From Nitrospirota bacterium (GTDB lineage: Bacteria; Nitrospirota; UBA9217): 64,000 bases of DNA. The DNA lies in contig CAWIYV010000014.1 in assembly GCA_963840455.1 (NCBI GenBank), forward strand, positions 533,469 to 597,468, given 5' to 3'. Below the pieces are notes generated by a model. It saw only the letters and a list, made by a program, of their open reading frames with translations, was not told where the DNA came from and searched no databases. Below, piece by piece: positions 19,468 to 22,720 of this stretch. Positions within the stretch are counted from its first letter, which is position 1, and each line of letters starts with the position of its first letter. Made by a program: the position numbers and the translations under genes.

Positions 19468-20658
19468 CTATCCCCGTATTTCCTTGAACTTCTTGATCAG
19501 GACCGGAAGGACCTCGTTCGCGTCTCCGACGATGCCATAGGTCGCGACATTGAAAATGGGCGCGTCAGGGTCCTTGTTGATGGCAACGATCGTTTCGGAG
19601 GACTGCATGCCTGCTACGTGCTGGATGGCGCCGGAGATGCCGACCGCGATGTAGAGCTTGGGGCAGACGGTCTTGCCGGTCTGGCCCACCTGGTGCGAGT
19701 ACGCGATCCAGCCCTCATCCACGGCTCCCCGCGTTGCCGCGACGGCACCACCGAGAACCCTGGCAAGCTCTGCAAGCATGTGGAAGTTCTTCTGGCTGCC
19801 AAGGCCCCGGCCGCCGGCAACGATGATGTCGGCCTCGCAGATGTTCACGGTCTCGGTCAGTTCTTCGACGGTCTTGAGCACCTTCGTGCGGACGCTGTTA
19901 GCCTGGGTGAACTTCACGTCGACGATCTCGCCCTTCCGGCTGTCGTCACGCAGGGCCGGCCTCATCACCTTGTGCCGGACCGTGGCCATCTGGGGCCGGT
20001 GGTTCGGCGTCACGATGGTGGCCATGATGTTCCCGCCGAAGGCTGGCCGGGTCTGGTGCAGATGGCCGGTCGCGGCGTCGATGTCAAGCACCGTACAGTC
20101 CGCAGTGAGGCCGGCATAGAGCGTTGAGGCCACCTTGGGGAAGAAAGAACGGCCGATGGCCGTTGCGCCGGCGAGGATGATCTCGGGCTTGTGCTCCCGT
20201 GCAAGCGCGGTCAGGATTGCCGCGTAGGAGTCGTCATTGAATTCCCTGAGCGCCGGGTCGTCGGCAACGTACACGGTGTCAGCGCCGTAGGCGATCAGGT
20301 CATTGGCCTTTGCCCTGATCCCCGAGCCCAGGAAGACGGCGGACAATTTCGCCTGCCTCTTGCCGGCAAGCTTCCTGCCCTCGCCGAGCAGTTCCAGCGA
20401 GACGCTGGCGATCTCGCCCTTGTGCTGCTCCGCGAAGACCCAGACGCCCTTGTACGACGAAAGGTCCTTCGCGGGCCCTATCTGTTCGATGTCCTTCTCG
20501 ATGGCCTTGAACTCGCAGGCCTCGACGCAGGCGCCGCAGAGGGTGCAGGCATCGGTGATGAACGCCTTGCCCTCGCGCATCTCGATGGCGCCGAAGGGGC
20601 AGGCCGACACGCAGGTCTCGCAGCCTGTGCAGATATCCGGTTTTACTTTAACGCTCAC
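19468..20658 (-). CDS. etfA: Electron transfer flavoprotein alpha subunit with N-terminal 2x[4Fe-4S] domain
   Basis: [12 protein letters not shown] / [47 protein letters not shown]. Confidence 0.93.
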
Positions 20659-20683
20659 GAAAGACTCCTTGAATATCGTGCAG

Positions 20684-21469
20684 TTAGATCAGCGATTGTT
20701 CCTTCAATTTTTTCGCCACCGTAGCGACCTGATCCTCGATGCTGCCGGAGAGGATCTCCCGCTGGCCGCGCGGCGCGGGTGGGAAGATCCGGACTACCTG
20801 GGTGGGGGAGCCCTTCAGGCCGATCTTTTCCTCGTCGGCGCTGATGTCCTTGGCCGTCCAGGCGGTGACCTTCAGGTTCTTTGCCTTCATCTTGCCCTTG
20901 AGGGACGGGACACGGGGCTCGTTGATCTCCTTCACCACCGTGATGAGGGCCGGAAGGGATGTCTCAACGACATCGTAACCTTCGTCCATAAGCCGTTCAG
21001 CGATCATCTTCCGACCCTCGATCTGCTCGATCTTCCTTATATAAGCGACGAAAGGGATGCCGAGCATGTCGGCGGTCTCGGGCCCGACCTGCGCTGTGTC
21101 GCCGTCGATGGCCTGCTTGCCCGCGATCACGAGGTCATACTCCCCGACCTTCCTGATCCCCTGGGACAGGGCATACGAGGTCGCCCAGGTGTCGGCGCCG
21201 GCAAAGGCGCGGTCCGACAACAGCACCACATCATCCACCCCAAGGGAGACAGTCTCCTTCAGCGCCTCGGCCGCCTGGGGCGGGCCCATGGTGACCGCGG
21301 TCACCTTGCCGCCGTGCTTCTCGCGAAGGCGGAGCGCCTCCTCGATGGCGTACCGGTCGTAGGGATTGATGATGCTGGGCACCCCGTCGCGGATGAGGGT
21401 GTTCGTCTCCCGGTTGATCTTCACTTCCGCGGTGTCCGGGACCTGTTTTACCAGAACGATGATGTTCAT
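20684..21469 (-). CDS. etfB: Electron transfer flavoprotein beta subunit
   Basis: KQVPD, INPYD, DRAFAGADTWATS, GKQAIDGDTAQVGP. Confidence 0.94.
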   Translation of the reverse strand: MNIIVLVKQVPDTAEVKINRETNTLIRDGVPSIINPYDRYAIEEALRLREKHGGKVTAVTMGPPQAAEALKETVSLGVDDVVLLSDRAFAGADTWATSYALSQGIRKVGEYDLVIAGKQAIDGDTAQVGPETADMLGIPFVAYIRKIEQIEGRKMIAERLMDEGYDVVETSLPALITVVKEINEPRVPSLKGKMKAKNLKVTAWTAKDISADEEKIGLKGSPTQVVRIFPPAPRGQREILSGSIEDQVATVAKKLKEQSLI

Positions 21470-21562
21470 GAACAATGTTCTCCGAAGATTGGGTAGAGAA
21501 GCAGTCTAGTCGCAGTCGAGAAACGATCCCATTGTCCCGACTGCATTATGACTGCTCTACGA

Positions 21563-22720
21563 TTATTTTGCCCTCGTTGCTTCGCGGATCATGTCCAGGG
21601 CGACGACGTTGCGCTGGACCTGGTTGGTGCCCTCATAGATCTGGAGGATTTTGGCGTCGCGCATCATCTTCTCGACGGGGTATTCCTTCATGTAGCCCGA
21701 GCCGCCCATGACCTGGACCGCGTCGGTGGTCACCTTCATCGCGACGTCAGTGGCGAAGTACTTTGCCATGGCCGAGGCACGGGAGAAGTCCTTGGCGCCG
21801 CTGTCCATCATGCGTGCCACGGCGTACACGAGGGCGCGTGCGGCCTCGGTCTGGGTCTGCATGTCTGCCAGCATGTGCTGGACCGCCTGAAACGAGGTGA
21901 CGGGCTGTCCGAACTGGACCCGGCCCTTGGCGAACTTGATGCACTCGTCGATTGCGCCCTGCGCCACGCCGACGCCCTGGGCCCCCACGCCGGCGCGAGA
22001 GCAATCGAGGGTCTTCATGGCAACGATGAAGCCCATGCCTTCTTTCGTGATGAGGTTCTCCTTGGGGATACGGCAGTTGTTGAAGATGAGCTCCGTGGTG
22101 GACGAGGCACGGATGCCCATCTTGTTCTCTTTCTTGCCGAACGTGAAGCCGGGCGTGCCTTTTTCCACGATGAATGCCGAAGCGCCGCGGGGGCCCTTGG
22201 ACTTGTCGGTGATGGCGATGATGGTGTAGATCTCAGCCTCGCCGCCGTTCGTGATCCACTGCTTGGTGCCGTTCAGCACGTACTCGCTGCCTTCCAGCTT
22301 CGCCGTGGTCTGGATGCCGCTGGCGTCGCTGCCTGCATTGGCCTCGGTCAGGCCGAAGGCCACAAACTTCTTTCCCGCTGCAATATCAGGCAGGTATTTT
22401 TTCTTCTGCGCGTCCGAGCCGTGGAGCAGTATCGGGTAGCTGCCGAGTGCGTTCGCCGCGTAGGTGGTGGACACGCCAAGGCAGGCCTTGGAGATCTCCT
22501 CGATGGCGATGTAGAAATCCAGGCTCTTCTTGCCGAGGCCGCCATACTCTTCGGGGATGTAGATGCCAAAGAGGTCTGCCTGGGCCATGGCCTTCATGAT
22601 CTCCGTCGGGAACTTGTTCTGCTCGTCCAATTCGGCCCGCACCGGCACGATCTTCTCGACCGCGATCTGCCGTGCGAGATCGCGTATCATGATCTGCTCT
22701 TCCGTCAACAGGTAGTCCAT
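21563..22720 (-). CDS. Acyl-CoA dehydrogenase (butyryl-CoA dehydrogenase-like)
   Basis: FGLTEANAGSDA, LNGTKQWITNG, KMGIRAS, RVQFG, MGGSGY, IYEGTNQ. Confidence 0.93.
   Translation of the reverse strand: MDYLLTEEQIMIRDLARQIAVEKIVPVRAELDEQNKFPTEIMKAMAQADLFGIYIPEEYGGLGKKSLDFYIAIEEISKACLGVSTTYAANALGSYPILLHGSDAQKKKYLPDIAAGKKFVAFGLTEANAGSDASGIQTTAKLEGSEYVLNGTKQWITNGGEAEIYTIIAITDKSKGPRGASAFIVEKGTPGFTFGKKENKMGIRASSTTELIFNNCRIPKENLITKEGMGFIVAMKTLDCSRAGVGAQGVGVAQGAIDECIKFAKGRVQFGQPVTSFQAVQHMLADMQTQTEAARALVYAVARMMDSGAKDFSRASAMAKYFATDVAMKVTTDAVQVMGGSGYMKEYPVEKMMRDAKILQIYEGTNQVQRNVVALDMIREATRAK

What the first reader, a model, noticed from the sequence alone, without database searches (positions are those of the whole stretch)
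19468..22720. Electron-bifurcating-type Bcd/EtfAB module embedded in the fatty acid synthesis operon: candidate new enoyl-ACP reductase
Seen: order DUF177-rpmF-plsX-fabH-[acyl-CoA dehydrogenase-etfB-etfA]-fabD-fabG-acpP-fabF-rnc, all on one strand with short gaps behind one consensus promoter. No fabI/fabK/fabV and no thiolase, crotonase or CoA-transferase genes occur in the window. EtfB has DRAFAGADT and GKQAIDGDTAQVGP motifs and EtfA has an N-terminal 2x[4Fe-4S] domain. Established: this architecture matches bifurcating enoyl-CoA reductases (clostridial Bcd-EtfAB; Acetobacterium CarCDE, whose CarE has the ferredoxin fusion), which couple NADH-dependent enoyl reduction to ferredoxin reduction. 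Inference: here the complex may reduce enoyl-ACP in FAS II, conserving energy as reduced ferredoxin at each elongation cycle. Alternatives are making short or branched acyl-CoA primers for FabH, or anaerobic desaturation.
Basis: partly seen in the sequence, partly recalled or inferred. Interest (0 to 1): 0.85.

Follow-up and report, generated by a model that had tools for sequence, protein, structure and literature searches.

The report
Candidate electron-bifurcating enoyl-ACP reductase
A butyryl-CoA-dehydrogenase-like flavoenzyme and its two electron-transfer partners sit inside the fatty acid synthesis operon of an anaerobic Nitrospirota bacterium that has no known enoyl reductase, so they probably carry out that missing step and may save energy while doing it.

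Summary
On the minus strand, behind a 12/12 consensus promoter, lie yceD-rpmF-plsX-fabH-[acd-etfB-etfA]-fabD-fabG-acpP-fabF-rnc. The dehydrogenase is closest to Clostridioides difficile Bcd. The Etf pair is closest to CarD/CarE, including CarE's 2x[4Fe-4S] domain.

The 100%-complete genome has FabZ but no FabI, FabK, FabL or FabV above threshold.

Among 41 Nitrospirota genomes, the 28 with the orthologue have no FabI and no FabK above cut-off. Of the 13 without it, 12 have one.

Of 80 orthologue loci from many phyla, 42 lie beside fab genes. Where acd has moved away, etfB-etfA-fabD stay together. 23 of 32 carrier genomes lack any Hbd/FadB, which argues against a CoA pathway role.

There are caveats. 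In Thermodesulfobacteriota the complementarity is only partial, and 12 genomes have neither the trio nor a known reductase. Four of 7 Bacillota carriers also have FabI. A FabX-like protein co-occurs with the trio. No assay or ACP-docking evidence exists.

Verdict: probably a fifth, Etf-dependent type of FAS II enoyl-ACP reductase (about 0.55). No description was found in 8 literature searches.

The parts
25623..25651 (-). sigma-70-type promoter, 12 of 12 consensus positions, upstream of yceD
25063..25593 (-). yceD (DUF177)
   Evidence: Pfam PF02620, 93 bits
24873..25055 (-). rpmF (ribosomal protein bL32), 60 aa; starts at an internal ATG of the listed 147-aa ORF
   Evidence: translation; recognising it as bL32 rests on recalled knowledge
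23775..24821 (-). plsX
   Evidence: PF02504, 391 bits
22798..23778 (-). fabH (KAS III)
   Evidence: TIGR00747, 465 bits, above cut-off 292
21563..22720 (-). Bcd-like acyl-CoA dehydrogenase-fold flavoprotein; proposed catalytic subunit of the enoyl-ACP reductase
   Evidence: three ACAD Pfam domains. Best NCBIfam hit is AcrC at 469.7 bits, below its cut-off of 640. Best PDB hit is 5OL2_C Bcd at 422 bits. The YEGT motif is invariant in 28 orthologues.
20684..21475 (-). etfB, bifurcating-type small Etf subunit; an ATG lies two codons after the TTG
   Evidence: PF01012. CarD 6FAH_B scores 267 bits and the other bifurcating Etfs 214-241 bits, against 84-96 bits for non-bifurcating Etfs.
19468..20658 (-). 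etfA with an N-terminal 2x[4Fe-4S] ferredoxin domain (CarE-like)
   Evidence: Fer4, ETF and ETF_alpha domains. Aligns over residues 1-393 with CarE 6FAH_A at 413 bits.
18430..19452 (-). fabD; the true start is probably the Met about 30 codons in
   Evidence: TIGR00128, 351 bits, above cut-off 261; translation
17678..18418 (-). fabG
   Evidence: TIGR01830, 340 bits, above cut-off 298
17387..17623 (-). acpP, with the DSLD motif
   Evidence: PF00550; alignment A2
16023..17264 (-). fabF
   Evidence: PF00109 and PF02801
15308..16000 (-). rnc (RNase III); the listed ORF start overlaps fabF, so the real start is later
   Evidence: PF14622 and PF00035

Best explanation
The acd-etfB-etfA trio is the enoyl-ACP reductase of this organism's type II fatty acid synthase. 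The Bcd-like flavoprotein would reduce trans-2-enoyl-ACP using electrons delivered by a CarDE-like, bifurcating-type EtfAB. By analogy with Bcd-EtfAB and CarCDE, two NADH are oxidised at the EtfB FAD. One electron path runs downhill through the EtfA FAD to the dehydrogenase FAD and the enoyl thioester. The other runs uphill through the fused 2x[4Fe-4S] domain to ferredoxin. Each elongation cycle would then yield reduced ferredoxin. Shown here: gene content, operon position, family assignments, absence of known reductases in the genome, conserved linkage to fab genes, and the phyletic pattern. Inferred: ACP rather than CoA as the substrate carrier, the direction of the reaction, and bifurcation itself.
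For: (1) The trio sits between fabH and fabD in one operon.

(2) The genome is 100% complete. It has FabH, FabD, FabG, AcpP and FabF, and FabZ at 204 bits against a cut-off of 155. No FabK is above cut-off; the best hit is 125 bits inside a PKS-like ORF. No FabI hit was found. No SDR has FabI or FabL as its best model. No FabV hit was found.

(3) Among 41 Nitrospirota genomes, 28 carry the orthologue (>=70% identity, or fragments at 88-98%). Of those 28, none has FabI and none has FabK above cut-off. Of the 13 without the orthologue, 12 have FabI (229-342 bits) or FabK (484-501 bits). The 13th is an 86%-complete member of the carrier family.

(4) In a second lineage, the class around a Thermodesulfatator MAG, 40 of 41 genomes have the orthologue, 0 of 41 have FabI and 0 of 41 have FabK above cut-off.

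(5) Of the 80 best orthologue loci (67-92% identity), 42 have acd beside fab genes. These come from Nitrospirota, Thermodesulfobacteriota, Margulisiibacteriota, Saganbacteria, Rokuibacteriota, Omnitrophota and MAGs labelled Actinomycetota. All 22 loci of the carrier family other than the window's own that reach the neighbouring genes keep plsX-fabH-acd. In 3 of 3 Thermodesulfovibrionales genomes where acd stands alone, etfB-etfA-fabD are still adjacent.

(6) 23 of 32 carrier genomes have no 3-hydroxyacyl-CoA dehydrogenase at E<=1e-25. These include a closed genome and three more genomes scored 96-100% complete. The 8 unlinked loci examined have housekeeping neighbours and no thiolase, crotonase or hbd.

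(7) The FabX-like protein also occurs together with FabK (G025) or FabI (G028, G037) where the trio is absent. It is missing at E<=1e-20 from 9 of 20 fab-embedded carriers in other phyla. It therefore does not track the missing reductase.

(8) The Etf is of the bifurcating type by similarity.

(9) The orthologues form a tight clade on a 1.25-substitution branch away from 45%-identical Nitrospirota paralogues (quick tree).
Against: There is no biochemical evidence and no ACP-specific sequence feature. The enzyme aligns almost without gaps to genuine butyryl-CoA dehydrogenases.

Four of 7 Bacillota genomes with an unlinked orthologous trio also have FabI at 273-299 bits. One Thermodesulfobacteriota genome (G114) has both the orthologue and FabI at 415 bits.

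In the 81-genome Thermodesulfobacteriota sample, 13 of 39 carriers have FabI or a FabK-like protein of at least 200 bits, and 6 have a weak FabI-like SDR of 139-159 bits. Twelve of the 42 non-carriers have no recognised reductase at all. Five of those 12 were searched for FabV and none has a hit, though that model rang in no control genome. Three of these five show a plain plsX-fabH-fabD or plsX-fabG operon. So either an unrecognised reductase exists in that phylum or my screens miss some.

Seven of the 20 fab-embedded carriers from other phyla have FabK-like hits of 179-358 bits. One carrier in the window's own family (G009) has one at 258 bits.

A FabX-like NMO protein co-occurs with the trio in nearly all Nitrospirota carriers and in 40 of 41 genomes of the second class.

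The window's own genome has an acyl-CoA ligase-thiolase-FadB cluster with no dehydrogenase of its own. Here the enzyme could therefore also serve CoA substrates.

Related genomes are not independent. The Nitrospirota pattern reflects only a few evolutionary events.
Confidence: 0.55

Rival explanations
1. An unrecognised reductase elsewhere in the genome performs the FAS II step. Candidates are a divergent NMO/FabX-like protein, a FabG-like SDR or an unknown family. The fab-embedded trio would then have another ACP- or lipid-linked redox role. One possibility is an acyl-ACP dehydrogenase working with the FabX-like enzyme in anaerobic unsaturated fatty acid synthesis. Another is an electron sink or source for it.
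For: 12 of 42 Thermodesulfobacteriota genomes without the trio also lack every recognised reductase, so unknown reductases probably exist. A FabX-like protein scores 203 bits to H. pylori FabX 7E1Q. It co-occurs with the trio in most carriers. In strict anaerobes it would need an electron acceptor other than O2; passages of PMC8626469 read say that only O2 is known as acceptor. The own genome has three further FabG-like SDRs.
Against: The FabX-like protein also occurs with FabI or FabK where the trio is absent (G025, G028, G037). It is missing from 9 of 20 fab-embedded carriers in other phyla. A 100%-complete 1.7-Mb carrier (G027) has only one FabG/FabL-like SDR at E<=1e-40. The trio occupies the fab operon across phyla.
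Confidence: 0.2
2. The trio is an ordinary bifurcating butyryl/short-chain enoyl-CoA reductase. It would make butyryl-CoA or other short acyl-CoA primers that FabH loads into FAS II.
For: The dehydrogenase is closest to genuine Bcd enzymes, 422 and 405 bits to 5OL2_C and 4L1F_A. It lies directly after fabH. The own genome has a thiolase and a FadB-like enzyme that could supply crotonyl-CoA.
Against: 23 of 32 carrier genomes have no Hbd/FadB. No thiolase, crotonase or hbd lies next to any of the 8 unlinked loci examined, or in the window. This reading leaves FAS II without a reductase. The NCBIfam equivalog cut-offs for related enoyl-CoA reductases are not reached.
Confidence: 0.12
3. The trio is the organism's beta-oxidation acyl-CoA dehydrogenase with its Etf, and it lies in the fab operon only by accident.
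For: The ligase-thiolase-FadB cluster on the same contig lacks a dehydrogenase. The genome has only one other ACAD-like gene.
Against: The fab linkage is conserved across phyla. Most carriers lack FadB/Hbd. The Etf is of the NADH-binding bifurcating type, not the respiratory type.
Confidence: 0.05

Closest known systems
Bcd-EtfAB, the electron-bifurcating butyryl-CoA dehydrogenase complex of clostridia (C. difficile 5OL2, A. fermentans 4L1F/4KPU)
   Same: The dehydrogenase is the best PDB match, at 422 and 405 bits, nearly gapless, with the YEGT motif kept. It has the same three-gene acd-etfB-etfA unit and bifurcating-type Etf motifs.
   Different: It sits inside the FAS II operon instead of beside thl/hbd/crt. 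Most carrier genomes have no Hbd/FadB. EtfA carries an extra ferredoxin domain. The proposed substrate carrier is ACP.
CarCDE, the caffeyl-CoA reductase-Etf complex of Acetobacterium woodii (6FAH)
   Same: EtfA aligns end to end with CarE, including the N-terminal 2x[4Fe-4S] domain (413 bits). EtfB's best match is CarD (267 bits).
   Different: The dehydrogenase is nearer to Bcd (422 bits) than to CarC (325 bits). No CoA-transferase or ligase genes lie in the window.
Known enoyl-ACP reductases FabI, FabL (SDR), FabK (NMO/FMN) and FabV
   Same: The proposed reaction and operon position are the same. From recalled knowledge, fabK lies next to fabD in streptococcal and clostridial fab clusters. 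The distribution is complementary to FabI and FabK in Nitrospirota.
   Different: The fold is unrelated (ACAD plus Etf). It has three subunits, several FADs and Fe-S clusters. It probably uses two NADH and ferredoxin rather than a single hydride transfer.
ACAD-fold dehydrogenases acting on carrier-protein-bound substrates (MbtN, RedW/PigA, AnaB 4IRN)
   Same: They show that the ACAD fold can accept ACP- or PCP-tethered thioesters.
   Different: Similarity is only distant: 75 bits to MbtN (cut-off 700), 241-249 bits to PigA and RedW (cut-offs 500 and 650), and 200 bits to 4IRN. Those enzymes oxidise their substrates and are not known to pair with a bifurcating Etf (recalled).

Membership tests
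Acyl-CoA dehydrogenase (ACAD) superfamily | N-terminal, middle and C-terminal ACAD domains | tested here: met
   PF02771 at 123 bits, PF02770 at 96 bits, PF00441 at 174 bits
Acyl-CoA dehydrogenase (ACAD) superfamily | Catalytic glutamate in the C-terminal YEG(T) motif (its role is recalled knowledge) | tested here: met
   Y362 E363 G364 T365 are invariant in 28 orthologues and align with the same motif of 5OL2_C and 4L1F_A
Bifurcating Bcd-EtfAB (butyryl-CoA dehydrogenase complex) | Dehydrogenase gene adjacent to etfB and etfA of the bifurcating (two-FAD, NADH-binding) type | tested here: met
   Gene order. EtfB scores 214-267 bits to bifurcating Etfs against 84-96 bits to non-bifurcating ones.
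Bifurcating Bcd-EtfAB (butyryl-CoA dehydrogenase complex) | Butyrate-pathway context (thiolase, 3-hydroxybutyryl-CoA dehydrogenase, crotonase) that supplies crotonyl-CoA | tested here: not met
   None in the window. None beside the 8 unlinked loci examined. 23 of 32 carrier genomes have no PF02737 hit at E<=1e-25. The own genome does have a distant thiolase-FadB cluster.
Bifurcating Bcd-EtfAB (butyryl-CoA dehydrogenase complex) | NADH- and ferredoxin-dependent reduction of crotonyl-CoA | not testable with these tools
   Needs an enzyme assay
AcrABC acryloyl-CoA reductase (NCBIfam equivalogs NF042972, NF042971, NF042970) | Score above the curated equivalog cut-off | tested here: not met
   469.7 against 640, 242 against 475, and 357 against 600
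CarCDE caffeyl-CoA reductase | EtfA (CarE) with an N-terminal two-cluster ferredoxin domain | tested here: met
   Full-length alignment to 6FAH_A at 413 bits; two CxxCxxCxxxC motifs
CarCDE caffeyl-CoA reductase | CarC-type dehydrogenase and caffeate activation genes (CoA transferase or ligase) nearby | tested here: not met
   CarC scores 325 bits, below Bcd at 422. No such genes are in the window.
Known enoyl-ACP reductase families (FabI, FabL, FabK, FabV) | Sequence membership in the SDR FabI/FabL, NMO FabK or FabV families | tested here: not met
   The trio's proteins match only ACAD, ETF and Fer4 families
Enoyl-ACP reductase (functional class) | Reduces trans-2-enoyl-ACP; needed for FAS II | not testable with these tools
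   Only indirect evidence: operon position, absence of other reductases and the phyletic pattern

The most novel reading that the evidence does not exclude
A fifth, evolutionarily unrelated class of bacterial enoyl-ACP reductase exists. It would be a Bcd-like flavoprotein working with a CarDE-like bifurcating EtfAB. It would couple every FAS II elongation cycle to reduction of ferredoxin, so that strict anaerobes recover energy from lipid synthesis. It would be the housekeeping reductase of Thermodesulfovibrionia, Thermodesulfobacteria and members of several candidate phyla. The fab-embedded arrangement would be ancestral for the clade.
Probability: 0.45. Interest if true: 0.9.

Novelty: new variant of a known kind. 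Interest (0 to 1): 0.8.

Why it matters
Enoyl-ACP reduction is the step that pulls each fatty acid elongation cycle forward, and it is a classic antibiotic target. Four enzyme families are known for it, and some bacteria have none of them. An Etf-dependent, probably bifurcating reductase would fill that gap for whole classes of anaerobes.

It would also be the first case of flavin-based electron bifurcation built into a core anabolic pathway. That would change energy budgets for lipid synthesis in energy-limited sulfate reducers and subsurface bacteria. It would further correct the routine annotation of these genes as 'butyryl-CoA dehydrogenase/Etf', which wrongly suggests butyrate fermentation or beta-oxidation in metagenome-based metabolic reconstructions.

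Tried and rejected
Complex prediction with two ACD copies plus AcpP, using alignments A1 and A2, gave 'no answer' (ipSAE 0.00 in both runs; controls not run). It counts neither way.

The FabV searches (PF12241, NF010177) found nothing. The models rang in no control genome either, so FabV absence is only weakly shown.

Public RNA libraries: only small shares of the stretch were held. Laid contigs from RNA libraries include near-identical pieces. One lies on etfB (20852-21114, 2 differences). One spans the fabG-fabD junction (18361-18704, 4 differences). One lies on acpP. No listed piece bridges fabH-acd or etfA-fabD. The tool warns that DNA can be present in such libraries. I do not count this as evidence of expression or co-transcription.

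Eight literature searches returned nothing on an Etf- or ACAD-dependent enoyl-ACP reductase. They combined enoyl-ACP reductase with Etf, EtfAB, bifurcation and acyl-CoA dehydrogenase terms, and etfA/etfB with fabD/fabH. The full-text term search of PMC6085437 found 0 occurrences of 'fatty acid', 'enoyl' or 'acyl carrier'. Garcia Costas et al. 2017 (recalled) is not held. Supplements were not available and could hold gene-neighbourhood tables that I could not see.

I considered mapping CoA-nucleotide contact residues and pocket depth. I dropped it because the tools give no coordinates and my memory of the contact residues is not reliable.

The careful maximum-likelihood tree did not finish, so the quick tree was used.

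Full report
OBSERVATION

All genes lie on the minus strand:
- yceD, 25063-25593
- rpmF, 24873-25055
- plsX, 23775-24821
- fabH, 22798-23778
- an acyl-CoA-dehydrogenase-fold gene (acd), 21563-22720
- etfB, 20684-21475
- etfA, 19468-20658
- fabD, 18430-19452
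- fabG, 17678-18418
- acpP, 17387-17623
- fabF, 16023-17264
- rnc, 15308-~16000

FabH, FabD and FabG pass their NCBIfam cut-offs. The gaps flanking the trio are 77, 87, 25 and 15 nt. The only full-consensus promoter of the region (12 of 12 positions) lies at 25651-25623, just upstream of yceD. EtfA starts with two CxxCxxCxxxC motifs. EtfB has the DRAFAGADT and GKQAIDGDTAQVGP motifs. None of the 50 other ORFs of at least 100 aa in the window belongs to a thiolase, crotonase, CoA-transferase or enoyl reductase family. By the titles of its closest relatives, the organism is an uncultivated Nitrospirota bacterium of the Thermodesulfovibrionia kind.

WHAT THE THREE PROTEINS ARE

The dehydrogenase has the three ACAD domains. 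Its best solved relatives are the butyryl-CoA dehydrogenases of the bifurcating complexes of C. difficile (5OL2_C, 422 bits) and A. fermentans (4L1F, 405 bits). Both alignments are nearly gapless. CarC scores 325 bits. It stays below every NCBIfam equivalog cut-off; the best is AcrC at 469.7 against 640.

EtfB is closest to CarD (267 bits). The other bifurcating Etfs score 214-241 bits, against 84-96 bits for non-bifurcating Etfs. EtfA aligns over residues 1-393 with CarE, including the ferredoxin domain (413 bits). The module is therefore a Bcd-like dehydrogenase paired with a CarDE-like bifurcating-type Etf.

IS A KNOWN ENOYL-ACP REDUCTASE PRESENT?

The genome is 100% complete in 14 contigs.
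- FabK (TIGR03151, cut-off 453): the best hits are 125 bits inside a 2612-aa PKS-like ORF and 93-96 bits in a 374-aa NMO protein.
- FabI (NF005717, which E. coli FabI hits at 292 bits): no hit at E<=1e-30.
- The SDRs found with PF13561 (11 hits; 5 proteins scanned with NCBIfam, 4 of them SDRs) are FabG-like or other. None has a FabI or FabL model among its best matches.
- FabL (NF005975): the best hit is 181 bits against a cut-off of 328, and that hit is FabG itself.
- FabV models found nothing, but they rang in no control genome either.
- FabZ is present at 204 bits against a cut-off of 155.

FAS II is thus complete except for its reductase.

THE NMO PROTEIN

It is a full-length homologue of Helicobacter pylori FabX (7E1Q and related entries, 203 bits; FabK structures score at most 70 bits). 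FabX is a decanoyl-ACP dehydrogenase/isomerase for unsaturated fatty acids, and H. pylori's FabX depends on O2 (PMC8626469, passages read).

PHYLETIC PATTERN IN NITROSPIROTA (41 GENOMES)

The acd orthologue is present at 70-100% identity, or as contig-end fragments at 88-98%, in 28 genomes. These are the window's own genome, 23 of 24 others of its family, and all 4 genomes of three further families. None of the 28 has a FabI hit, and none has FabK above cut-off. One (G009) has a 258-bit FabK-like hit.

Of the 13 genomes without the orthologue:
- 9, from five families, have FabI at 229-342 bits.
- 3 have FabK at 484-501 bits, and one of these also has FabI.
- 1 is an 86%-complete member of the carrier family.

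The FabX-like protein is in nearly all carriers. It is also in G025 (with FabK) and in G028 and G037 (with FabI). Where the trio is missing, a canonical reductase is present even when FabX-like is there. This complementarity reflects only a few evolutionary events, not 41 independent ones.

SYNTENY

All 22 loci of the carrier family other than the window's own that reach the neighbouring genes keep plsX-fabH-acd; those that reach further also keep etfB-etfA. So do both loci of a second family.

A scan of species-representative genomes gave at least 590 relatives. I examined the 80 best (67-92% identity):
- 42 have acd beside fab genes, 37 of them with etf genes as well.
- 12 have acd with etf genes only.
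- 26 have acd alone.

The fab-linked loci come from Nitrospirota, Thermodesulfobacteriota, Margulisiibacteriota, Saganbacteria, Rokuibacteriota, Omnitrophota and MAGs labelled Actinomycetota or Pseudomonadota. In the 3 'acd alone' Thermodesulfovibrionales genomes examined, etfB-etfA-fabD are still adjacent elsewhere. In 2 genomes from other phyla the etf pair stands alone.

Eight unlinked loci (three Nitrospirota, three Bacillota, two others) have unrelated housekeeping neighbours and no thiolase, crotonase or hbd.

In a quick maximum-likelihood tree, the 80 orthologues plus the window form one tight clade. A 1.25-substitution branch separates it from 45%-identical Nitrospirota paralogues. Groupings largely follow taxonomy, and the fab-linked state appears on the deepest branches (the careful search did not finish).

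OTHER PHYLA

Of the 20 fab-embedded carriers outside the close relatives:
- None has FabI at 229 bits or more; one has a 157-bit hit.
- None has FabK above cut-off.
- 7 have FabK-like hits of 179-358 bits.
- 9 have no NMO hit at all at E<=1e-20.

Of the 7 Bacillota genomes with an unlinked trio, 4 have FabI at 273-299 bits. That is a clear co-occurrence.

In the class around a Thermodesulfatator MAG, 40 of 41 genomes have the orthologue. None of the 41 has FabI and none has FabK above cut-off. 40 of 41 have a single FabX-like hit.

In an 81-genome sample of that phylum, 39 carry the orthologue (>=58% identity). Results:

| Reductase criterion | Carriers | Non-carriers |
|---|---|---|
| Canonical: FabI >=290 bits or FabK >=453 bits | 1 of 39 | 12 of 42 |
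| Loose: also FabK-like >=200 bits | 13 of 39 | 27 of 42 |

The Fisher p values are 0.002 and 0.008, but they are overstated because relatives are not independent.

Twelve non-carriers show no recognised reductase. Five of them have no FabV hit. Three of these five have a plain plsX-fabH-fabD or plsX-fabG operon. Either my screens miss reductases or another unknown one exists in this phylum. This weakens any argument that rests on absence alone.

AGAINST A CoA-PATHWAY ROLE

23 of 32 carrier genomes have no 3-hydroxyacyl-CoA dehydrogenase domain at E<=1e-25. These include a closed 100%-complete genome (G036) and G015, G026, G027 and G035, scored 96-100% complete. Five high-quality carriers have no FabL above cut-off. 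The 1.7-Mb G027 has a single FabG-like SDR at E<=1e-40.

The window's own genome does have an acyl-CoA ligase-thiolase-FadB cluster without a dehydrogenase. It has only one other ACAD-like gene. A second, CoA-directed role in this organism cannot be excluded.

MECHANISM

Most likely (about 0.55), the trio is the FAS II enoyl-ACP reductase. By analogy with Bcd-EtfAB and CarCDE (recalled knowledge), NADH reduces the EtfB FAD. One electron goes through the EtfA FAD to the dehydrogenase FAD and on to the enoyl thioester. The other goes through the fused 2x[4Fe-4S] domain to ferredoxin. The catalytic YEGT motif is invariant in 28 orthologues.

ACP as the carrier, the direction of the reaction and bifurcation are all inferences. 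An ACD-AcpP complex prediction gave no verdict.

COMPARISON AND NOVELTY

The module works like Bcd-EtfAB and CarCDE and belongs to the ACAD and bifurcating-Etf families. It fails the pathway-context criterion of both complexes and the NCBIfam equivalog cut-offs. It is unrelated to FabI, FabK, FabL and FabV. ACAD-fold enzymes acting on carrier-bound substrates exist (MbtN, RedW/PigA, AnaB) but are only distant relatives.

Eight full-text searches and term searches in two papers found no description of an Etf-dependent enoyl-ACP reductase. Subscription journals and supplements were not searchable.

I rate it a new variant of a known kind, with high interest.

Noticed in passing
outside the window: G000:C14:90993-97957 (L140:4993-11958, minus strand): A 2322-aa ORF fuses ACAD middle and C-terminal domains (residues 1368-1586), an ETF domain (1776-1878) and an ETF_alpha FAD domain (2190-2271). 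These follow about 1300 residues with no Pfam match. It is the genome's only other ACAD-like gene, and it looks like a single-chain dehydrogenase-Etf.
   Followed up: partly
outside the window: G000:C4:37162-38361 (L002:1450-2571): A FabX-like NMO flavoprotein scores 203 bits to H. pylori FabX, with a Cys-rich C-terminal part. It co-occurs with the trio in most carriers. H. pylori FabX needs O2 (PMC8626469), so in these strict anaerobes its electron acceptor is an open question.
   Followed up: partly
outside the window: G000:C10:~255100-260300 (L142): A second fab-like cluster holds ACP, a ketosynthase, a FabA/FabZ-like dehydratase, a second ketosynthase, a FabG-like reductase (310 bits to TIGR01830) and a methyltransferase. 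It also has no enoyl reductase.
   Followed up: partly
outside the window: G000:C9:52261-60096: A 2612-aa PKS-like ORF carries an NMO-type (FabK/PfaD-like) domain at 125 bits, a KS-like region, an acyltransferase-like region and an SDR domain. Similar large ORFs with such a domain appear in only a few relatives.
   Followed up: no
L103 (Thermodesulfobacteriota MAG), match at 2645-3799: Here acd sits in the operon as yceD-plsX-acd-fabG-acpP-fabF, with no etf genes and no fabH detected in the locus. The dehydrogenase and the Etf can evidently be separated in both directions.
   Followed up: no
G133, G146, G148 (L147-L149) and 9 further genomes of the Thermodesulfobacteriota sample: Twelve genomes have neither the trio nor any recognised FabI or FabK. 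Five were tested for FabV and none has a hit. Three show a plain plsX-fabH-fabD or plsX-fabG operon. Another unrecognised enoyl reductase may exist there.
   Followed up: partly
window 1-4200: G+C is about 0.49 here against about 0.60 elsewhere. The region has an IS1595-family transposase at 3295-4143 and two ORFs with no family match. It is probably a mobile insertion.
   Followed up: no
window 17304-17327 (minus strand): A terminator-like hairpin lies between acpP and fabF. It could attenuate read-through into fabF.
   Followed up: no
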